Origin: Eledone cirrhosa
Taxonomy: Eukaryota
Assembly (NCBI GenBank): GCA_964016885.1
Contig: OZ024747.1
Location: forward strand, 92,008,001-92,072,000
DNA: 64,000 nt
Reading direction: 5' to 3'
In this document: piece by piece, positions 26,805 to 63,154 of the stretch
Layout: each line of letters starts with the position of its first letter
Position numbering within the stretch: position 1 is the stretch's first letter
The notes under the pieces: model-generated
The model's input: only the letters and a program-made list of their open reading frames with translations
Told to the model about the DNA's origin: nothing
Database searches by the model: none
Program-made: the position numbers and the translations under genes

Positions 26805-26900
26805 GGGAGTGTGACTTGGAGTTGCTGCAGGTTCACCCGGGTGAGCACTCAATGTTTAGGTTCACTTCCGTGTTGAGGTGTAGAGCTAGACAGAGTCTAA

Positions 26901-27076
26901 TATATTGAAAGGATAACAAGGACGATTGGTTACTCCTTCATTACGTATATTGGTAGGTGACGCGCGTTTCGCCACTGATTAGCTCAACCTTGAGCTGATC
27001 AGTGGCGAAACGCGCGTCACCTACCAATAAATGTAATGAAGGAGTAACCAATCATCGTTGTTATACTTTCAATATA
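26901..27076. mobile_element. Palindromic PLE-like stub containing the 3' part of a minimal hammerhead
   Basis: 87-bp arms with a few mismatches around centre 26988-26989; tgaGCTGatcagTGGC GAAA CGCGCG TC (26991-27018); (TA)n on the right. Confidence 0.7.
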
Positions 27077-27087
27077 TATATATATAA

Positions 27088-27296
27088 GAAAAGGTATGAC
27101 CCCCGACGGCAGAGCTCAAGCCGTTTCGGCGGCTATTTCTGGTATATAAATAGCCGGTATAGAAATAGCCGTCGAAACGGCTTGAGCTCTGCCGTCGGGG
27201 GTCATACCTTTTCCTATTATCCACTCTACTACCCTAAGTATTGAGTACTCTGGTGTGTTATGGTCTATCTGGTTCCTTACCACAATTCCTTCGTTA
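27088..27296. mobile_element. PLE-like fold-back stub, 'ccccgacggc' family, in (TA)n
   Basis: Inverted arms 27088-27140 and 27161-27213; the long arm ends ccttcgtta|(TA)n as in the 52266 and 57355 copies. Confidence 0.65.
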
Positions 27297-27322
27297 TATA
27301 TATATATATTTATATATATATA

Positions 27323-27374
<52 letters not shown>

Positions 27375-27377
<3 letters not shown>

Positions 27378-29075
27378 ACAGGGGGGAAGAAAAAATGGCT
27401 TCACTTGTGCTTTCAACAAATTTATTTTCTTCACAAAATCCAAAAAGAATTTTTCTTAAAAAAAATGATTTTATAAATTAAGTTGGTTGTTGGTTAGGTC
27501 TTAGGAGTTCTTGGTTAACGTAGGAGGTATTGTTTCGTTGTTAGAAAGACCTTTCACGCTGAGGTGCGCTTGTCAAACTGATGTGTATGTGGTGTGTTGT
27601 TCTATATATAGGGATTTAACATGTCTGTGGTGTGGTAAGGGTTTCTTTTCTCCCCTTTTAATAAGTGCATGGGTGTAGGTGTGTTGAAAAAGTGTTCATA
27701 GCAGTAATGAGTTGAGACGGTGAGTAGGGTTGGGTGGGGAGAAACCTAGCAAGTGCGGCCTGCCCCGGTCATTCTCGAAAAATTCCTTTATTCAGGGGAA
27801 AAAGCTTTTAGCATCGCTTTTGTGTTGAGAATGGTCACAGGCAAATCGCACCTGTCAAGCTTGTGAATAATTATTTTTTTCTTTTTTTCCTGAAGAATCT
27901 AGGCAGAATTCTAGAAGGAAAACTCTGATATAACACCTGCAACCCTGATGGTACCCAATGATGTTGACTTGTTCTTCTTTTTGGTAAATATCATCTTGGT
28001 TAAGAGAGTGGGACTGGCTTTGTGCAGTGCCTTTGCTCACTATAAAAGCTTCACGGCACAGGCATTGCTTTATATCTGGAGATCTCTCTGCACTTGTCCT
28101 CACATGGTACAATGGGCCCAGCACAATGTGTCAATAATTGTCACAAGTGTAGTGTTTGTACCAGAGTTTTCAAGTCGCTGGCTGGACTAAAAAGTCACAC
28201 TCGTTCAGCGCTTCGGTAGGGGTTCTCCTACATGGATATAAAGTAGTGGCCGTACTCGAAAACGAGTTGGCAGCCACCATATATATATATACCCATGTGG
28301 AGGTATGTGTACATATTCGTGTGTGTACGTATGTGTATGTGTGTTTTTATATGTGTCTCTATATGTTTTTGTGTATGTATTTGTACAGGGGTGTGTGATT
28401 GATGGTGTGTGCCTATATATTCCTACATATGCCCGTGTGTGTATGTACATATATGCACACATATATATATGTGTGTGTTGAACAAAGGACTAACTTTGGG
28501 ATGGACGTAGAAAGATTCTTCAGGAAAAAAAGAAAAAATAATTATTCACAAGCTTGACAGGTGCGATTTGCCTGTGACCATTCTCAACACAAAAGCGATG
28601 CTAAAAGCTTTTTCCCCTGAATAAAGGAATTTTTCGAGAATGACCGGGGCAGGCCGCACTTGCTAGGTTTCTCCCCACCCAACCCTACTCACCGTCTCAA
28701 CTCATTACTGCTATGAACACTTTTTCAACACACCTACACCCATGCACTTATTAAAGGGGGAGAAAAGAAACCCCTACCACACCACAGACATGTTAAATCC
28801 CTATATATAGAACAACACACCACATACACATCAGTTTGACAAGCGCACCTCAGCGTGAATGGTCTTTCTAAAAACGAAACAATACCTCCTACGTTAACCA
28901 AGAACTCCTAAGACCTAACCAACAACCAACAACTTAATTTATAAAATCATTTTTTTTAAGAAAAATTCTTTTTGGATTTTGTGAAGAAAATAAATTTGTT
29001 GAAAGCACAAGTGAAGCCATTTTTTCTTCCCCCCTGTCTTAATATACCTAACTGTACCAAGGATTACACACGTTT

Positions 29076-29165
<90 letters not shown>

Positions 29166-29546
29166 GGTGGCTGCCAACTCGTTTTCGAATACGGCCACTA
29201 CTTTATATCCATGTAGGAGAACCCCTAACGATGCGCTGAACGAGTGTGACCTTTTAGTCCAGCCAGCGACTTGAAAACTCTGGTACAAACACTACACTTG
29301 TGACAATTATTGACACATAGTGCTGGGCCCATGGTACCATGTGACGACAAGTGCAGAGAGATCTCCAGATATAAAGCAATGCCTGTGCCGTGAAGCTTTT
29401 ATAGTAAGCAAAGGCACTGCACAAAGCCAGTCCCACTCTCTTAACCAAGATGATATTTACCAAAAAGAAGAACAAGTCAACATCATTGGATACCATCAGG
29501 GTTGCAGGTGTTATATCAGAGTTTTCCTTCTCCTAGAATTCTGCCT
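27375..29546. repeat. Two interleaved inverted duplications (A 27375-27900 / 28513-29040; B 27901-28280 / 29164-29546)
   Basis: Direct reverse-complement matching with scattered substitutions. Segment A encodes ..KEKIIIHKLDRCDLPVTILNTK..*, resembling a GIY-YIG C-terminal E..I..L...LN end. Confidence 0.85.
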
Positions 29547-30381
29547 TGACAAAGGCTAAGGGGTCATCTCTCCCGGTGATTTTGGATGGCCATTGACTCT
29601 TAAGAGCTCCTTTGGCCTTTGACAGGTTTTGATTTTAGTCCTGCAGGATGTCCAAAGTCACCCTCCTCACCAAGAAACCTTGGTGGGGTTGCCAGTTTAG
29701 TCGCCAACGACCCGACCATGATACAGGTTGTACTGGGATACATGTTACCAGTCACATGTATATATACATACATATATACACACATACATATATATATACA
29801 TATATATATATATATACATACATATATGTATGTGTATGTATATGTATGTATGTATATGTGTGTATATGTATATATGGGATTGTGGTGGTGCACGTTAATC
29901 TTCGGTTATAGAGGTAAGAATGGATTCAATATTCAATAAGCAGAATTATGTAAAATTCCTGTTTTTTAGCATGTTTACTTGCCTCTATATTGAATATGTA
30001 TATATTTATAAAGAGATTGGTGCAGTCTCGGTTACCCACTTTGTATGTAAACTGGAATATTGTGTACATATATGTATATATATATATATATATATATAGT
30101 AGTTCCACAAGAGTTAGTTCACTATACCGAGATCAAATGTTTCACAAAACTCGTCCCATGGACTGTGTACGCTACTACTACGGTTATAACCCTCCAGTGT
30201 TCTACTCATCTATATATATATATATATATTGGTCAGCCTTGTCACATTCTGTGTCATACGGAATCTCCCTGAGAACTACGTTAACGGTACACGTTTCTGT
30301 GGAATGCTGTACATGAACTTCATGAGCAGGATGTTCCTTTGACCGGATCAACTAGAATACTCATCGTTGTAACTGATAGAG

Positions 30382-31937: not shown

Positions 31938-31968
<31 letters not shown>

Positions 31969-32138
31969 TGTTATACTTTGGGAGGGTCATGTTGCCAATA
32001 AGAAACACACGCACCAGTTGCTTTCACTTCAATTTATTATATATTTATAAATTTATAAATTTACAAATTTACAAACTTATAAATTTATAAATTTCTGGTT
32101 GGTTGGTTGGTTCCACAACCAGATAGTTGTTTATATAT

Positions 32139-32183
32139 AGGCATAGTCCTTTCGTCACACACTCTGTGACCTCTTCAGTGACT
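32139..32183 (-). ncRNA. Minimal type I hammerhead ribozyme motif (3' pLTR copy, stem I mismatch)
   Basis: agtca CTGAAGA g gtcaca gagtg tgtgac GAAA ggac TA tgcct. Confidence 0.65.
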
Positions 32184-32550
32184 GGGGATTCCTTTCCTTT
32201 GTTTCTGTGCCTTTCCTTTCTTCTATCCTACGCCATTTTGTTTCTGTGTGTGTGTTGTGTGCTCAGTTTGCGCATGCGCCACATCCGGGTGTCTGTGTGT
32301 GTTTGTGTTCATTTATCTATTTGTTTATTTATTTATTTATTGTTGGTTGGTTGTTTGTTCTATGTGTGTGTGTGTTTTCATTTTGTCCTGTGTGTGTTTT
32401 CATTTTGTCCTTAATTGTAAGTTGTTTGTTCTATGTGTGTGTGTTTTCATTTTGTCCTGTGTGTGTTTTCATTTTGTCCTTAATTGTAAGTTGTTTGTTC
32501 TATGTGTGTGTGTGTTTTCATTTTGTCCTGTGTGTGTTTTCATTTTGTCC

Positions 32551-35500
32551 TTAATTGTAAGTTGTGATGTTGCTGTTCCACTCATATTTTCTATTTAATT
32601 TTGGTTTTAATTCTTTTATGCTTACTGCCTCTGTAATTTGCCTAAACATTGCGTCTTTTCTGTGTGTGGATTCTATTTTTATTTCTATGTTCTCTAGTCT
32701 ACCCCTGTGTTCTATCTTAGCATGTTGGTAGAGCACAGATGATTCTTTATTATCTTGGAGGTCTCGCCAGTGTTCATTTATTCGTTCCCCTATACTACGA
32801 GCTGTCTCACCTATGTACACTATATTTTTGTTTCTACATTGTCCTTCTGTACATCTTATGCTATACACTACATTTCTAGTTTTACAGTTAATATGGGGGC
32901 TTATTTTACAGGTTATACATTTCTTATCTATACATGAGGGTCTTTGGAACGGGTATGTCTTGCTAATAAGTGTTTTTACGGAGGTACCTGGTCTTTCTAC
33001 TATCTTAATATTGAGATTATGTTTATTTAGGGCCCTTCTAAATTTGTAGGCTAGTTCGCCTCTAGGGGTTGTATTGATGAACATTACACTCTGGTATTTA
33101 TTGCTATCATACCATGAGTTTATTCTATTGGCCTTGTTCCTAGTTCTTTCTATTCTATTCCAAAATTTGCTCCTATACAAGGGGCAGGTCCCATTTATGT
33201 CATTATTTACCATTTTTTCCCATTTGGTTCTGGCTCCTTTATACACTCTGATTCTATCTCTCTGATTGTAGCCAGAGAACTGCATACGGTGGATGAAGTG
33301 TTGTATGTGTCTCTCTAGTTCTTCGGGGTTGCACATGCGGGACACATTTCTCATCACCTGTACCAAATCCGCAATCAGTATGTTGATTTTGGTATGGTCC
33401 GAAATGGCCGAGTTTCGGTGGATCAGATGTTTGGAAGTCATGGGTTTGGCATAAAGGGAATGGAGGATTTGTTTTTGGTTGTTAATGGTATCTAACCAGA
33501 GCTCTGTGTCTAGTACAGGTAATCGATGGTTGGGGTGTCTACTTGGGTAGTCTATAGTCACTCTAATGCTCTGGTGGATGGAGTTTGCTATTTGCTGGAT
33601 GCTTTCCATTGTGTTTTTCTCTAGTTTCTGACTGTTCTTTAGTGGGGGTGTCTTAACTACGATGTTTATATCATCTACGTAGCGGGAGTACATTATCAGG
33701 GTTAAGCTGTCTTCTAATTGTTCTTTAAGTTTTTGTTTAAGTCTACTGTCCCACCATACCATGAATAAGTTAGCTATGTCGCCTGCAATGCTAACACCAA
33801 TGGCTGCTCCTTCCTCTTGGGCATATGTTTTACCATTAAATTTGAACATATGTTCCTTAAGGGTTAATTTTATGCTGGCCCCTACCGCATGTGCAATCAT
33901 TTTCTTCAGTTCATCGTGGTTTTCGGGTGTCCGTATGGCTCTGGTCCACCCGTTCCATCTATCTGTGTGGGTTTTCTTGGCCATTGAGGTAATGGTAGGT
34001 GGTCTGCCTCTTGCTGGTCTTGTAGGGCACAGGTTGCTAAGGTCATAAGTGTCTAGGTAACTATTACTATGGGTAAGCTTAAGTAGAAGTCCCAGCTCAC
34101 TGGTATCAATCCCACGGAACTCAACCTTGCTCTCGCTGATCATTTCTACGCATTTCTCCACAGCAAAATCCACGTCAATAGATGGATACAGGGACACAAC
34201 ATCCATACTGCCTATTATGCAGTTTGTTAGGTCCCCAGATCGGTTACTCGCGCCGATTCTGCTGAGGAGGTCCTCCGTGCTGTCACACACATCTGGGGAC
34301 ATCTCAATGATGGGGCGTATGATCAGGGAGAGGAAGTAGGACAGTCTGTAGTTACTAGCAATGTTAGCCCCACAGACTGGCCGTGTTGGTGGTCCCTCGA
34401 CAGGGTCCCAGCCCGTTTTATGGTCTTTTCGAAGCCCATACAACGCCGGCACGTCATTGTTCCAGGCCTGGAAGTTGTTGGCAGTCCTTTTGTTGGGCTG
34501 CATTATATTCGTCCACATCACCATATGGGCATTGAGGGCTTTTTCTCTATCCTCATGCTCCTGTGGTGTTACCTCTCTTGTGTTAGTGATGTGGGGTTGC
34601 ATTGCCTGGATGTAGTTTGGCAGGCTGTCAACCGACATTCTGCCAGACTTGTCTGTTGGAAAACATGCTATCTCTCCATTACGCGAGCGCTGCATGAGCT
34701 TACGCAAGCCATTTGCAGATTTTTCTCCCAGTTGCTGGGCCTCTATTCTATTATGCTTCTTGCTATACTGTTCTATAATATTTCAAAGTTCGGATTTAGC
34801 TATACTAAATTGTGCTTCTGTTTGTTCATCGACCTGTGACGGCAACTGCGTGCGTTTGTTAAATGGCAGAGTCGTGGCGTGGACTCGTCGTAGGTCGAAT
34901 GATTTATCGGAGGGGTTATAAAACGGAGAGTTCCAGGCTGCTGCTTTATGTGTACTAGTGCTATTATTATTGTTAGTTGTGTTGTTTCTATTTCTATTTC
35001 CACCAACAGCCTCAGCCTCATGGTTGTTTCTATGTCTCTCATAATTACTCCTGTCTCTTTCCACTGGCTCAATGTTGTTATCTACCCTATTTTGTGTGTC
35101 TGTGTGTTCGTCTTGGTTATTCTCTTTGTCCTTAGTCTCCCATCTCCTTTTCCTTTTAATCCTATTACTTTCTCTTATTTCTCTGATTTCTGTGCTACTG
35201 TCATTACTTGTTTTCTGTGTCTGTGTGTTTGTTAAGATTGTGGTGGTGGTGAGAGGCATTGAATGCGTGTGTGTTGTTGTTGTTGATGTGTGTTGTTGTT
35301 GATGTGTGTTGTTGTTGTCTCCGTGTGTGTTATCGTTGTTGTGTGTGTTGTTATTGTTGTTTGTGTCTGCGTGTCTGTTGTTGTTGTATCTGGGTATGTT
35401 GCTATTGTTGTTGTTGTTGATGTGTGTGTTGTTGTTATTGTTGTTTGTGTCTGTGTGTCTGTTGTTGTTGGGATGTGTGTTGTATATGTGTGTGCGTATA

Positions 35501-36249
35501 TTGTTGCTTTTGTTTTTGATGCTCCAGCGTAGTTTTGTAAATGATTTTTCTATTTCTGACAGACAACTAATCATATTTACCTTCTTGAATGTCGCAAATT
35601 TGGGTGGCAGACATAACACAGACATTTCATTATTATCTATTTCCGTGTTTCCATAAATGTTGGTATTTTAGTTGTTGAACTCTTCTGATAATGAGGTGTC
35701 GGCCATGTTGATACCGTCAATTTTGTCGGGATATCTATTGGTATACTCTATAGTATCCCGATTTAGCTTTGCCTGTTTAAGCCACTTTAGTTTTCTGTTA
35801 AAGTGCTTATCACATTCTTGAGTAATGTACTGTTCTTCGGGGCGTATAAGGCTTATAAATATTAGTTTCTCTCTTGGTGTGGTGATTTTAGCTATTTCTT
35901 GTATTAGGTTACGCTTTTGTTTTTCTTGATGACTTAATTCTCTATAGATCTTCTTTTTTATGTTTAGAATTAAAGTTCGTTTTAGCCTATCTGCTTGTTT
36001 TTTGGTGAGTTGTAATCTTCTAACGTCGGTATTGATGGTGTTGGTGTAGAATCTAGAAGTGGTGCACAGTTTTATGAAGTGTAGTTGTCGAGATGTTATG
36101 GTTTTTCGTAGACAACAGAACATGGTGGTTTTCAGTATCTTGTTAGCCTGGCTAAGGCTTACGATATTTCGTTTCTGAATTTGTTTAGCAAGATTCTTTA
36201 TCTGAAATCGTGTGTTGAAACCGATATTGTTATACTTTGGGAGGGTCAT
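32551..36249 (-). pseudogene. PLE polyprotein: N-terminal domain, reverse transcriptase, Cys-rich linker, GIY-YIG endonuclease (two in-frame stops)
   Basis: ORFs 35668-36273, 34783-35625 and 32551-34707 share one frame; the intervening codons are open (*NTNIYGNTEIDNNEMSVLCLPPKF; *NIIEQYSKKHNRIEAQQLGEKSANGLRKL). Motifs: TDKSG, SMDVVSLYPSI, GAAIG, NLFMVWWD, RYVDD, RMQFSGY, CxxxxCxxC, VVY..YIGET.R..GERINEH, E..I..L.P.LN. First ATG at 36249 (MTLPKY). Confidence 0.92.
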
Positions 36250-36393
36250 GTTGCCAATAAGAAACACACGCACCAGTTGCTTTCACTTCAATTTATTATA
36301 TATTTATAAATTTATAAATTTACAAATTTACAAACTTATAAATTTCTGGTTGGTTGGTTGGTTGGTTCCACAACCAGATAATTGTTTATATAT

Positions 36394-36438
36394 AGTCATA
36401 GTCCTTTCGTCACACACTCTGTGACCTCTTCAGTGACT
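36394..36438 (-). ncRNA. Minimal type I hammerhead ribozyme motif (upstream pLTR copy)
   Basis: agtca CTGAAGA g gtcaca gagtg tgtgac GAAA ggac TA tgact; 5-bp stem I, 6-bp stem II. Confidence 0.75.
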
Positions 36439-37894
36439 GGGGATTCCTTTCCTTTGTTTCTGTGCCTTTCCTTTCTTCTATCGTACGCCATTTTGTTTCT
36501 GTGTGTGTGTTGTGTGCTCAGTTTGCGCATGCGCCACATCCGGGTGTCTGTGTGTGTTTGTGTTCATTTATCTATTTGTTTATTTATTTATTTATTTATT
36601 GTTGGTTGGTTGTTTGTTCTATGTGTGTGTGTGTGTTTTCATTTTGTCCTGTGTGTGTTTTCATTTTGTCCTTAATTGTAAGTTGTTTGTTCTATGTGTG
36701 TGTGTGTTTTCATTTTGTCCTGTGTGTGTTTTCATTTTGTCCTTAATTGTAAGTTATGATGTTGCTGTTCCACTCATATTTTCTATTTAATTTTGGTTTT
36801 AATTCTTTTATGCTTACTGCCTCTGTAATTTGCCTAAACATTGCGTCTTTTCTGTGTGTGGATTCTATTTTTATTTCTATGTTCTCTAGTCTACCCTGTG
36901 TTCTATCTTAGCATGTTGGTAGAGCACAGATGATTCTTTATTATCTTGGAGGTCTCGCCAGGGTTCATTTATTCGTTCCCCTATACTACGAGCTGTCTCA
37001 CCTATGTACACTATATTTTTGTTTCTACATTGTCCTTCTGTACATCTTATGCTATACACTACATTTCTAGTTTTACAGTTAATATGGGGGCTTATTTTAC
37101 AGGTTATACATTTCTTATCTATACATGAGGGTCTTTGGAACGGGTATGTCTTGCTAATAAGTGTTTTTACGGAGGTACCTGGTCTTTCTACTATCTTAAT
37201 ATTGAGATTATGTTTATTTAGGGCCCTTCTAAATTTGTAGGCTAGTTCGCCTCTAGGGGTTGTATTGATGAACATTACACTCTGGTATTTATTGCTATCA
37301 TACCATGAGTTTATTCTATTGGCCTTGTTCCTAGTTCTTTCTATTCTATTCCAAAATTTGCTCCTATACAAGGGGCAGCTCCCATTTATGTCATAAAGAA
37401 TCATCTGTGCTCTACCAACATGCTAAGATAGAACACAGGGGTAGACTAGAGAACATAGAAATAAAAATAGAATCCACACACAGAAAAGACGCAATGTTTA
37501 GGCAAATTACAGAGGCAGTAAGCATAAAAGAATTAAAACCAAAATTAAATAGAAAATATGAGTGGAACAGCAACATCACAACTTACAATTAAGGACAAAA
37601 TGAAAACACACACAGGACAAAATGAAAACACACACACACATAGAACAAACAACTTACAATTAAGGACAAAATGAAAACACACACAGGACAAAATGAAAAC
37701 ACACACACACATAGAACAAACAACCAACCAACAATAAATAAATAAATAAATAAACAAATAGATAAATGAACACAAACACACACAGGCACCCGGATGTGGC
37801 GCATGCGCAAACTGAGCACACAACACACACACAGAAACAAAATGGCGTAGGATAGAAGACAGGAAAGGCACAGAAACAAAGGAAAGGAATCCCC

Positions 37895-37939
37895 AGTCAC
37901 TGAAGAGGTCACAGAGTGTGTGACGAAAGGACTATGACT
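37895..37939 (+). ncRNA. Minimal type I hammerhead ribozyme motif (inverted pLTR copy)
   Basis: Same sequence as 36394-36438; CTGAAGA 37900-37906, GAAA 37925-37928, TA 37933-37934. Confidence 0.75.
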
Positions 37940-38166
37940 ATATATAAACAACTATCTGGTTGTGGAACCAACCAACCAACCAGAAATTTATAAATTTATA
38001 AGTTTGTAAATTTGTAAATTTATAAATTTATAAATATATAATAAATTGAAGTGAAAGCAACTGGTGCGTGTGTTTCTTATTGGCAACATAACCCTCCCAA
38101 AGTATAACAATATCGGTTTCAACACACGATTTCAGATAAAGAATCTTGCTAAAAAAATTCAGAAAC

Positions 38167-38169
<3 letters not shown>

Positions 38170-38217
<48 letters not shown>

Positions 38218-56530: not shown

Positions 56531-56731
56531 TAAAACAACAATTAGGAAAACAATGAGTGCTCATTGATGTTATTTCTGTAGATTCTGTGAAAATAAATTA
56601 TTTATCACAGACAAAGGTTCCGTATAAAATATAAAATACTACATCGATACCTTTACTGATATCAATATTTTACACGAAAATATGGATGTATTATACATAT
56701 AGACATATATGTGTGTATATATATATATATA

Positions 56732-56767
<36 letters not shown>

Positions 56768-56819
56768 GGGACTATATATATAAAATAAAATAAAATAAAT
56801 AAGTTTAGCTTCGTTTATT

Positions 56820-56874
56820 ACTGCTATATATATTTCGGTGACAGCCATCTTCGGCTGTGACCTCTTCAGGCAGT
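56820..56874 (-). ncRNA. Intact minimal type I hammerhead ribozyme (mirror copy)
   Basis: Reverse complement of 57119-57173. Confidence 0.88.
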
Positions 56875-57118
56875 CCGAATTAGTGTGGTATAGACAAGTA
56901 CATATGTTGTTGAGGTGTATAACTTTGTCAATACTCTGATATGCCCAGTTCCTGGTTGGGTTGTTATTTCACTGAGGAACTGGAATCATATCATGATTCA
57001 TATATGATTCCAGTTCCTCAGTGAAATAACAACCCAACCAGGAACTGGGCATATCAGAGTATTGACAAAGTTATACACCTCAACAACATATGTACTTGTC
57101 TATACCACACTAATTCGG

Positions 57119-57173
57119 ACTGCCTGAAGAGGTCACAGCCGAAGATGGCTGTCACCGAAATATATATAGCAGT
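57119..57173 (+). ncRNA. Intact minimal type I hammerhead ribozyme
   Basis: actgc CTGAAGA ggtcacagcc gaagat ggctgtcacc GAAA tatata TA gcagt. 5-bp stem I, 10-bp stem II with one C-C mismatch, palindromic stem III, predicted cleavage after A57168. Confidence 0.88.
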
Positions 57174-57354
57174 AATAAACGAAGCTAAATTTTAAACATT
57201 TGATTTATTTATTTTATTTTATTTTACATTACTCCGGAGTAACCAAACCAACCTGCGCACTTCGTCGAGTGCTCCAATCTGCATACTTAGGTGTTGGTAT
57301 ACAACCAACATATACTCAAAATCTCTCTCTCTCTCTCTATATATACATATATAT

Positions 57355-57497
57355 AACGAAGGAAGTGTGGTAAGGAATCAGGTGGACCATAACGCACCAG
57401 AGTACTCGATTCTGACTAGCAGATTGGGTAATAGGAAAAAGTCGGGACCCCGACGGCTGAGCTCCGGCCGTTTCGACAGCTAGGTCCTCACTCTTTT

Positions 57498-57500
<3 letters not shown>
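57355..57500 (-). mobile_element. PLE-like stub, 'ccccgacggc' family, in (TA)n
   Basis: Minus strand reads tgag gac ctagct gtc GAAA cggccg ga gctcagccgtcgggg...ccttcgtta(TA)n. Confidence 0.6.
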
Positions 57501-59599: not shown

Positions 59600-60542
59600 T
59601 ATACATACTTATATATTCATTGCAATTATATATGTAGATCTACGCTGCAAACTTTAACCTAGACTCCGTTAAGTTGTTTATAAATATAGACATGTAATCA
59701 TCTCAAATTTACGTATTTCCTGTAAATTGATTTTTTTCCTTATTTGGAATCTCATCGGCGAATAAGTACACCAAACAATCACAAGGAAATATGTAACTGA
59801 TAGCCTTACAAAGCCTTATAAATGTAGCATGTACTAACTTCCATATATGTTGTGCCTGTGTTGGTAGTTAATTTTAATATATAAATTGTGCACTATACTG
59901 CATAAATATGCATATAATTTACATATTGATTACATGGACAATAAAGATATTAAATTCACATATTTCCTTATAAATTGAAACATTGATGCATATTCTTAAT
60001 CTACTTTCCACTGCAAGTGGGGTTTCATCAGAAATAGGTACATCAACCATCCACGGGGAATTACGCGTGGGAGTAGATAACCCTATGTGTTTAAATGTTT
60101 AAGCTATATCTTTAGTTAATTGTGTTTTATGATAATCTAATACATATTTCCTGTTTTAATAAATTAATCTCCTTATTGTATAACGTCCTTGTCCCTAAAC
60201 CTTTCATATAACGTTTGACCAGTCCCACTTGCATTATAACCCCTAAATTATAGCCCCAGCGCATCTCCCTTCCCATCCTCTGGGGAAACGCCTTCTCCAT
60301 TCTGTCCGCCGGGGCCGTGGGTCAGCCAGCATAATACAGAGAGATGAGGAGGGTAAGAGAGATGGAGGCGATTACAGTGGGTGTTCGGCTCCTCTGTGTT
60401 CGGACCTGGTGTGCAGCGTCAGTTGTCCGTAGGGAGGTAGTGATTCATATATATATATATAGTAATAATAATAAATGTGAAGACTAAAATTCGAAGAGGG
60501 CTTGATAAGGATAATATATATAAAATCCGTAAAGCAAATATT

Positions 60543-60660
60543 TATTAAAATAACAGATTAAAGTTTAAGGAAAGAAGCGCTGCTTTCACCCTTAACAGAA
60601 GATCCCGTTAAGGGTGAAAGAAGTGATTCTTTGCTTAAACTTCAATCTGTTATTTTAATA
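60543..60660. repeat. Imperfect fold-back (54-bp arms) next to (TA)n; possible PLE stub
   Basis: tattaaaataacagatt..tttcacccttaac pairs with gttaagggtgaaa..aatctgttattttaata; centre gaaga t ccc gttaa ggg t gaaa is HHR-like. Confidence 0.5.
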
Positions 60661-61281
60661 TATATTTATATATATATGTATATATATGTGTGTGTGTGTG
60701 TGTGCGTATTGTATTGTTCTCTATCATTTCGCCACACATCTATAGTTATAATGCTTACTGTAGTCTTCCTGCATGATCTTGGGGCTAATAAAGGAATCTT
60801 TATCAATAAAAATTTGTTTTACATTTTATAATTAACCTTTATTTAATTTGCGAGATATAAAGCATAAATAAACATTTACATATGTATGAAATTTTTAAGA
60901 AGGCTTAAGAACTTGAACATAGACCATTGAGATGAATCAAGAAGGATTCATGTTAATTTTCTTGTTCAAAAATTGAATTCAAAAGCCGTTCAACATTTTA
61001 AAATCTAAATAGAAAACTGCAACCAGTTGAGAAAGTGCTTATTGCATCGTATAAAATTTCAAAGATTCATTGCTAAATGAAGGAAGATCCATGTTATTGT
61101 GGTAACACTTATATTACCTGCCGTTAATTATGTAACATCTTTAATTTTATTTAATTCAATCTCACCTAGAATCGATGAACTAGCAAATTACATTCAAATC
61201 AAGCATCTGATGACTTTAAAGTAAATGAATTTTGTTTTCAACTTGATGAAAACACAATATGGTATAAAACTTTATTTACTG

Positions 61282-61437: not shown

Positions 61438-61499
61438 AATTTAAGGAATTGTTGAATATTTGCTATTTACATAGAATTTGAAAATTATATAATTGGATC

Positions 61500-63154
61500 T
61501 AAATACACTGATCCCGCTAAATACACTGATCCCGCTAAATACACTGATCCCGCTAAATACACTGTACCCCGCTAAATACACTGATCCCGCTAAATACACT
61601 GATCCCGCTAAATACACTGTACCCCGCTAAATACACTGTACCCGCTAAATACACTGTACCCCGCTAAATACACTGTACCCGCTAAATACACTGATCCCGC
61701 TAAATACACTGTACCCCGCTAAATACACTGTACCCGCTAAATACACTGATCCCGCTAAATACACTGATCCCGCTAAATACACTGTACCTCTAATTACACT
61801 GATCCCGCTAAATACACTGATCCCGCTAAATACACTGATCCCGCTAAATACACTGATCCCGCTAAATACACTGTACCTCTAATTACACTGATCCCGCTAA
61901 ATACACTGTACCTCTAATTACACTGATCCCGCTAAATACACTGATCCCGCTAAATACACTGTACCTCTAATTACACTAATCCCGCTAAATACACTGTACC
62001 TCTAATTACACTGATCGCGCTAAATACACTGTACCCGCTAAATACACTGATCCCGCTAAATACACTGATCCCGCTAAATACACTGTACCTCTAATTACAC
62101 TGATCGCGCTAAATACACTGTACCTCTAATTACACTGATCCCGCTAAATACACTGATCCCGCTAAATACACTGTACCTCTAATTACACTAATCCCGCTAA
62201 ATACACTGTACCTCTAATTACACTGATCCCGCTAAATACACTGTACCCGCTAAATACACTGATCCCGCTAAATACACTGATCCCGCTAAATACACTGTAC
62301 CTCTAATTACACTGATCCCGCTAAATACACTGTACCTCTAATTACACTGATCCCGCTAAATACACTGATCCCGCTAAATACACTGTACCTCTAATTACAC
62401 TGATCCCGCTAAATACACTGTACCTCTAATTACACTGATCCCGCTAAATACACTGATCCCGCTAAATACACTGATCCCGCTAAATACACTGTACCTCTAA
62501 TTACACTAATCCCGCTAAATACACTGTACCTCTAATTACACTGATCCCGCTAAATACACTGTACCCGCTAAATACACTGATCCCGCTAAATACACTGATC
62601 CCGCTAAATACACTGTACCTCTAATTACACTGATCCCGCTAAATACACTGTACCTCTAATTACACTGATCCCGCTAAATACACTGATCCCGCTAAATACA
62701 CTGTACCTCTAATTACACTGATCCCGCTAAATACACTGTACCTCTAATTACACTGATCCCGCTAAATACACTGATCCCGCTAAATACACTGATCCCGCTA
62801 AATACACTGATCCCGCTAAATACACTGTACCTCTAATTACACTAATCCCGCTAAATACACTGTACCTCTAATTACACTGATCCCGCTAAATACACTGTAC
62901 CCGCTAAATACACTGATCCCGCTAAATACACTGATCCCGCTAAATACACTGTACCTCTAATTACACTGATCCCGCTAAATACACTGTACCTCTAATTACA
63001 CTGATCCCGCTAAATACATGATCCCGCTAAATACACTGTACCTCTAATTACACTGATCCCGCTAAATACACTGTACCTCTAATTACACTAATCCCGCTAA
63101 ATACACTGTACCTCTAATTACACTGATCCCGCTAAATACACTGATCCCGCTAAA
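61500..63154. repeat. 17-19-bp satellite array with higher-order structure
   Basis: Units taaatacactgatcccgc, taaatacactgtaccc(c)gc, taaatacactgtacctc and taattacact(g/a)atcccgc. Confidence 0.95.

What the first reader, a model, noticed from the sequence alone, without database searches (positions are those of the whole stretch)
56804..57189. Long palindrome carrying an intact hammerhead ribozyme on each strand
Seen: 188-bp arms with no mismatch noticed, each with a complete minimal type I HHR (CUGAAGA / GAAA / UA, palindromic UAUAUA stem III), no ORF, beside (TA)n. Known: PLE pLTRs carry minimal HHRs that are thought to cleave as dimers, and PLE insertions often have inverted termini. Inference: a very recent insertion of a PLE family different from the main element, or a small non-autonomous fold-back retroelement. 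A read-through transcript from either strand would contain one HHR plus its full antisense copy. It could therefore either self-cleave or fold into a long dsRNA hairpin (a siRNA or ADAR substrate).
Basis: partly seen in the sequence, partly recalled or inferred. Interest (0 to 1): 0.75.

Follow-up and report, generated by a model that had tools for sequence, protein, structure and literature searches.

The report
Head-to-head Penelope stubs marking RNA start
This mirror-image repeat is one of hundreds of similar stubs of a Penelope-type jumping gene in this genome; each was likely built on landing from two short DNA copies of the element's RNA, joined at what is likely that RNA's capped start, which bears on how these elements make their long-puzzling inverted ends.

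Summary
The palindrome is real: exact 188-bp arms, a 10-nt spacer, and a hammerhead motif on each strand. It is the core of a ~540-bp insertion (56781-57321) of two pseudo-LTRs of a Hydra-clade Penelope-like element, unrelated to the window's main element.

It is not unique and not a unit that copies itself. 269 genomic matches fold back at the same centre with varied junctions. 32 of 99 arms stop within 6 bases of this point; 1 of 99 stops near the hammerhead cut. G precedes the stop 335 times against A 133, as a copied cap would give. In 65 of 69 two-armed insertions exactly one arm carries the 95-nt tail, both arms come from one source, and some arms do not overlap.

Best reading: two cDNAs primed from opposite target strands at two fixed sites run to the RNA's 5' end and join. 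Against it, 0 of 28 ORF-linked copies start there, and no RNA data were available. The architecture is published; this scan also found it in other genomes.

The parts
56781..56991 (-). Left arm: pseudo-LTR from the fixed 5' end to the 'short' 3' end (no tail); carries a 14-bp deletion between 56803 and 56804
56820..56874 (-). Minimal type I hammerhead motif of the left arm; predicted cut after A56825
   Evidence: mirror of the right motif
56992..57001 (.). 10-nt junction spacer. Its first base (C, equal to G just 5' of the left arm) is not templated by the parent; the rest resembles a short re-copied piece of the arm start
   Evidence: the reading of the letters is inference
57002..57226 (+). 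Right arm: pseudo-LTR from the fixed 5' end (57002, inferred capped RNA start) to the short-end site
57002..57054 (+). Predicted hairpin at the very 5' end of the inferred RNA
   Evidence: prediction only
57119..57173 (+). Minimal type I hammerhead motif; predicted cut after A57168; loop II carries an A>G change shared with the left arm
57227..57321 (+). 95-nt tail, equal to the 5' UTR that follows the pseudo-LTR in ORF-bearing tandem copies; ends beside a predicted stem-loop with an AUACA loop (57291-57311)
   Evidence: (L067)
57322..57355 (.). (TC)n run and (TA)n target on the right side
56692..56780 (.). (TA)n-rich target on the left side; no target-site duplication can be read

Best explanation
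The palindrome is two pseudo-LTR stubs of a Hydra-clade Penelope-like retrotransposon joined head to head, one of hundreds with the same centre, each likely made anew at insertion from two cDNAs that ran to the likely capped 5' end of the element's RNA. Shown: the parent element, the fixed inner end, two fixed outer ends about 95 nt apart, one of each per insertion, a common source for both arms, and insertion into (TA)n. Inferred steps: (1) an internal promoter in the pseudo-LTR starts a capped sense RNA at 57002; (2) the RT-endonuclease cuts both strands of (TA)n and primes one cDNA at the tail end and one at the short end; (3) both run toward the cap, and the RT often adds C opposite it; (4) the two 3' ends join by the self-complementary ATAT or a few slipped bases and copy each other. 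The hammerhead is a passenger that was uncut in these templates.
For: Parent: partial-tandem copy L067 has pLTR, tail, ORF (RT + GIY-YIG) and pLTR, unit about 4.1 kb. Hotspot: 35 of 80 loci in a 5'-anchored sample (36 flagged, L048 dropped because it runs on upstream). In a 3'-anchored sample 32 of 99 arms start within -5..0, against 25 over the next 165 bases. 269 tight fold-back matches genome-wide, reversed-pattern control 0. Cap-like G: 335 against 133 for A with the parent context excluded; expected ratio 0.5-0.7. One-tail rule: 65 of 69. Same source: 35 of 1071 diagnostic sites discordant against 39% under random pairing; 32 shared rare variants in 86 pairs against 1.15 expected. Two primings are needed where the arms do not mirror: tail arm 229-317 with short arm from +5 (L044), 259-317 with +2 (L154), and L076 and L064 with arms of very different length. 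In vitro, a PLE protein extends both strands and starts at two internal sites that bound the tail (PMC11167929, parts 1-2 of 4 read). Penelope has an internal promoter in its pseudo-LTR (PMC2377424, passages).
Against: 0 of 28 ORF-linked upstream pseudo-LTRs start at the hotspot; 10 run through it (0 of 10 against 32 of 74, p=0.011). So this is not the start of the RNA that yields full-length copies, and I cannot explain that fully. The G is ambiguous at many junctions: of 30 G loci inspected, 9 could be templated by the partner arm, 12 were unassigned, 7 were non-templated and 2 abutted (TA)n. 4 of 69 pairs break the one-tail rule. One pair (L205) mixes two subfamilies at 6 of 17 sites. Samples come mostly from one contig, and both arms of a locus were counted in the 99. 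There is no direct RNA evidence.
Confidence: 0.7

Rival explanations
1. Same two-cDNA joining, but the fixed end is an RNA cut or an RT stop at the foot of the 5' hairpin, not a capped start; the G comes from the RT's own habit of adding C.
For: A hairpin is predicted to begin exactly at 57002. ORF-linked copies do not pile up there. Many G junctions are ambiguous.
Against: RT stalls are expected where it enters a hairpin (about +52), not where it leaves (own knowledge). Long RNAs are copied straight through this site in 10 of 10 cases, which argues against a stall. The site reads as pyrimidine-A, like an initiator (sequence; motif recalled).
Confidence: 0.15
2. Self-priming or snap-back: one cDNA (or an antisense template, as proposed in PMC3846280) folds on itself at the parent's short internal palindrome and copies itself.
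For: The parent has TCATATGA at the centre; 27 of the 50 listed matches have a perfect centre. Shared rare variants fit one molecule.
Against: It cannot give non-overlapping or non-mirrored arms (L044, L154, L076, L064). Single-armed stubs also start at the same base. The extra G lies 5' of the sense strand.
Confidence: 0.08
3. The palindrome, or the solo pseudo-LTR plus tail, is a non-autonomous element that is transcribed and re-inserted in its own right (retrozyme- or SINE-like).
For: Stubs keep the inferred promoter, hammerhead and tail. The hotspot RNA does not appear to give ORF-bearing copies. (TC)n runs recur behind the tail in 25 of 108 ends.
Against: For the palindrome as a unit: junctions and arm lengths vary, and none of the 50 listed centres has this spacer. 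No stub-only lineage: all 5 subfamilies have stubs and long copies at similar divergence. No tandem arrays of the unit were seen in the loci mapped. Solo stubs as occasional donors are not excluded.
Confidence: 0.05
4. Assembly or library fold-back artefact.
For: This locus could not be confirmed in reads. Illumina libraries can make fold-back chimeras (own knowledge).
Against: The arms differ outside the core and have different family-typical ends, flanks differ, and arm pairs elsewhere have aged apart by 2-3%. The same joint appears in raw reads of other individuals.
Confidence: 0.02

Closest known systems
Endonuclease-positive PLE insertions with an inverted pseudo-LTR and an optional tail (Adineta vaga Pen2a/Pen3a, PMC3846280; overview in PMC8557442; passages seen)
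   Same: Head-to-head pseudo-LTRs, palindrome at the junction, tail on one end, solo pseudo-LTRs, AT-rich targets.
   Different: Here there is no ORF between the arms, there are hundreds of copies with one fixed centre, the tail is about 95 nt instead of 30-40, and a G excess sits 5' of the sense strand. PMC3846280 reads such palindromes as self-priming on an antisense template; the data here point to two primings on sense RNA.
Hydra clade of C-terminal-endonuclease PLEs (PMC8557442, section 11 read)
   Same: RWK, DKT, CxCx5C linker, CxxC and CxH motifs, C-terminal GIY-YIG, hammerhead, (TA)n target.
   Different: Unit about 4.1 kb against 'generally <3 kb', owing to a long insert between RT and endonuclease and a 3' UTR of about 1 kb. 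No tree was built.
Poseidon PAc of Anolis (PMC11167929, parts 1-2 of 4 read)
   Same: Two internal RT start sites that bound the tail, near an AC-rich stem-loop; both target strands extended; no sign of ends at the hammerhead cut.
   Different: That work does not address the inverted arm or the inner junction; different clade.
Minimal PLE hammerheads (PMC4209133, passages) and non-LTR retrozymes (bioRxiv 10.64898/2026.07.22.740005, part 1 of 5)
   Same: Type I motif with a short palindromic helix III, thought to need a dimer.
   Different: Retrozymes are direct tandem repeats cut into monomers. Here the two motifs are on opposite strands and copy ends avoid the cut site.
L1 twin priming
   Same: Two cDNAs primed from opposite target strands and joined by microhomology.
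   Different: In L1 the two pieces do not overlap and the second priming site varies. Here both sites are fixed and the pieces usually overlap, giving a palindrome.

Membership tests
EN+ Penelope-like element (parent) | Single ORF with RT and C-terminal GIY-YIG endonuclease | tested here: met
   GIY-YIG PF01541 at E 1.3e-4, 22.7 bits against cut-off 22.6. RT motifs read by eye in one frame with stops; Pfam gave no RT hit for the two RT pieces scanned.
EN+ Penelope-like element (parent) | Partial-tandem structure forming pseudo-LTRs, with inverted 5'-truncated copy and one-sided tail | tested here: met
   L067 and 28 of 30 ORF-start loci; 65 of 69 pairs
EN+ Penelope-like element (parent) | Hammerhead motif in the pseudo-LTR | tested here: met
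   core plus stem I intact in 138 of 189 arms; no Rfam hit
Hydra clade | RWK, DKT, CxCx5C linker, CxxC and CxH around E and N | tested here: met
   translation of L067 against the description in PMC8557442
Hydra clade | Insertion into (TA)n | tested here: met
   outer ends printed for 40 of 69 pairs, most flanked by (TA)n
Hydra clade | Length generally under 3 kb | tested here: not met
   unit about 4.1 kb; the paper gives this as a tendency
Hydra clade | Phylogenetic placement with Hydra RTs | not tested
   no reference proteins were fetched
Active hammerhead ribozyme | Self-cleavage at A17 as monomer or dimer | not testable with these tools
   Fold costs 2.7-4.7 kcal/mol in a single-arm RNA, and an 8-bp intermolecular helix III is possible. 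Indirect: 1 of 99 arms starts within 10 nt of the cut.
Non-LTR retrozyme | Direct tandem repeats of hammerhead-bearing monomers bounded by the cut site | tested here: not met
   arms are inverted and end at the fixed start, not at the cut
Self-propagating fold-back element (MITE-like unit) | Copies share one junction and length and form their own lineage | tested here: not met

The most novel reading that the evidence does not exclude
A dimeric PLE enzyme copies one capped sense RNA twice, from two fixed sites that bound the tail and from both cut target strands, the outer cDNA displacing the inner one. This single step would explain the tail, the inverted ends and the junction palindromes of PLEs in general, and would replace the antisense self-priming model. 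The stubs would mark the promoter to the base.
Probability: 0.4. Interest if true: 0.72.

Novelty: new member of a known kind. Interest (0 to 1): 0.45.

Why it matters
The shape is published, but how PLEs make inverted ends and a one-sided tail is still open: PMC3846280 proposes antisense self-priming, and PMC11167929 leaves the later steps unvalidated. This family offers thousands of arms (7,292 exact matches to a 23-mer). They give base-precise predictions for the RNA start, both RT start sites and the joining step, which CAGE and an existing in vitro assay can test directly. The individual locus has no evident function of its own.

Tried and rejected
Rfam: no hammerhead hit in the whole window or in 57090-57500. 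RNA evidence: no RNA holder listed, so expression, cleavage, editing and small RNAs were not examined. Locus-specific reads and an empty allele: flanks were not covered. Hammerhead cut as the source of copy ends: rejected, 1 of 99 arms; among 28 ORF-linked copies one start (L299) is compatible with the cut and several scatter at +137 to +195. A-to-I editing as the origin of variants shared by both arms (lead from e1-10280452): A>G was 5 of 32 shared against 28 of 227 one-arm variants, p=0.58; this locus's own shared A>G fell outside that count because the allele was over-sampled. It has 13 exact matches genome-wide, and in the 6 other two-armed loci checked it was on one arm only. Arm-to-arm homogenisation: tight pairs differ by 2.0% and spaced pairs by 3.0%; suggestive only, subfamily age not controlled. 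Kinship with the window's main PLE: none by blastn, tblastx or blastp. Paper searches listed no paper whose title or abstract start reports a cap-ended, double-primed PLE palindrome; the library lacks most subscription papers and older PLE reviews, and I saw no supplements. For one search I guessed a cephalopod host from genome size; this was not tested.

Full report
Observation. The arms 56804-56991 and 57002-57189 are exact reverse complements with a 10-nt spacer. Each strand carries a minimal type I hammerhead motif with A17 at 57168 (+) and 56825 (-). Rfam finds no hammerhead family here. The insertion is longer than reported: 56781-57321. The left arm ends at an AT-rich 'short' end and has a 14-bp deletion; the right arm continues through a 95-nt tail. 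Both sides are (TA)n. Below, positions count from 57004 = 0, so the arm start is -2, the predicted cut +165, the short end +224 and the tail end +317.

Parent. One arm has 828 candidate matches in the genome, the best at 98-99%. A 27-mer at the inner end has 1,670 exact matches and a 23-mer 3' of the hammerhead has 7,292. I fetched the loci behind the first 100 listed rows of each search. [quoted passage not shown] The protein has RWK, DKT, CxCx5C, CxxC and CxH, the marks given for the Hydra clade in PMC8557442; no tree was built. The window's main PLE is unrelated.

Fixed inner end. In the 5'-anchored sample 35 of 80 loci break at or within about 8 bases upstream of 0, mostly at -2 (one of 36 flagged loci dropped). 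In the 3'-anchored sample, which does not require the inner end, 32 of 99 arms start at -5..0, 25 start within +1..+165, 1 within +155..+175, and 42 run further upstream. A pattern for tight fold-backs at this centre has 269 matches; 27 of the 50 listed have a perfect centre with ATAT shared, and the rest have varied spacers. Some of these have only a short second arm, and at least one locus is counted twice. Raw reads of three other samples from one study show the depth step and strand-switch joints at this point. This locus itself was not covered.

Cap-like G. With the parent context excluded, the base before the start is G in 335 places and A in 133; composition predicts a ratio of 0.5-0.7. 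An untemplated 5' G is read as a possible copied cap in L1 work (PMC9341517, passages). Of 30 G junctions inspected, 7 were non-templated, 2 abutted (TA)n, 9 could come from the partner arm and 12 were unassigned; of 30 A junctions, 15 were templated and 2 were not. The window's left arm has the extra base.

Two primings from one source. In 65 of 69 two-armed insertions one arm ends at the tail and the other at the short end (two of these loci, L037 and L038, are near-duplicates). The arms agree in subfamily: 35 of 1071 diagnostic sites discordant against 39% for random pairs. They share rare variants: 32 in 86 pairs against 1.15 expected, also in arms 2-3.5 kb apart. Yet they need not mirror each other: some tail arms stop before the short arm begins, and long insertions have arms of very different length. 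Fold-back on one cDNA cannot give these. This fits the in vitro results for an Anolis PLE, which extends both strands and starts at two sites bounding the tail (PMC11167929). It disagrees with antisense self-priming, proposed for the same architecture in PMC3846280. One RNA or two cannot be decided; L205 mixes subfamilies.

Against the reading. Among 30 loci chosen by the ORF start, 28 have a direct upstream pseudo-LTR; none starts at the hotspot, 10 run through it and 18 start downstream (0 of 10 against 32 of 74, p=0.011). So the -2 RNA is not what yields full-length copies. It may be used mainly at its first priming sites, or come from 3' and solo pseudo-LTRs; this is unexplained. No RNA run was available.

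Not a self-copying unit. Junctions vary, and all 5 subfamilies have stubs and long copies at similar divergence, about 1-3%. This copy is young but not exceptional: 11 of 67 pairs have no substitutions.

Hammerhead and hairpin. In an RNA from one arm the hammerhead fold costs 2.7-4.7 kcal/mol, and its helix III could pair between two molecules, as proposed in PMC4209133. In a read-through RNA it costs 87 kcal/mol, so the hairpin would dominate. Transcripts starting at the centre would run outward, each with one sense arm and no antisense partner (inference). Copy ends give no sign of cleavage.

Verdict. A real, known kind of structure in a new, very abundant family. Its value lies in the population statistics, which favour double priming on a capped sense RNA. 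Earlier notes of this scan report the same architecture and similar readings in other genomes (nothing by sequence); my reading was fixed before I saw them, and they are not independent support. One of them (e1-9820663) saw ends at the hammerhead cut, which this family does not show. Interest 0.45.

Noticed in passing
window 57356-57500: A second, unrelated high-copy repeat (2,996 candidates) with the same design: a long arm with a tail of about 75 nt joined to a short inverted arm, in (TA)n. 16 of the 39 other scored loci have an inverted partner, all short-ended. No parent ORF was found, so its PLE identity is not shown.
   Followed up: partly
window 31965-38174: The window's main PLE (RT + GIY-YIG, 743-aa frame at 32551-34782 minus) has inverted ends and its own hammerhead motifs at 36433 (-) and 37900 (+); unrelated in sequence to the palindrome's family.
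   Followed up: partly
tail ends of family copies, e.g. window 57322-57337: (TC)n runs of 2 to 86 units follow the tail end in 25 of 108 ends, where the parent has a single TC. Possibly RT stuttering at initiation, or inheritance from stub donors.
   Followed up: partly
L205 (G000:C21:9838000-9843000): A tight fold-back whose two arms belong to different subfamilies (6 of 17 diagnostic sites): two RNA templates in one event, or later recombination.
   Followed up: partly
L296-L325: In ORF-bearing tandem copies, 18 of 28 upstream pseudo-LTRs are truncated between +38 and +292, far denser than further upstream; 8 of 30 have an open frame to the end of the fetched DNA (531 codons).
   Followed up: no
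L031, L032, L034, L085, L095, L106: ORF pieces of other Hydra-like PLE families lie near family copies, so the clade appears diverse in this genome.
   Followed up: no
window 27295-29549, 26900-27217, 60536-60667: Other inverted repeats (up to about 640 bp, 86-96% alike) in the window.
   Followed up: no
window 61499-63154: Tandem array with an 18/35-bp unit, about 1.65 kb.
   Followed up: no
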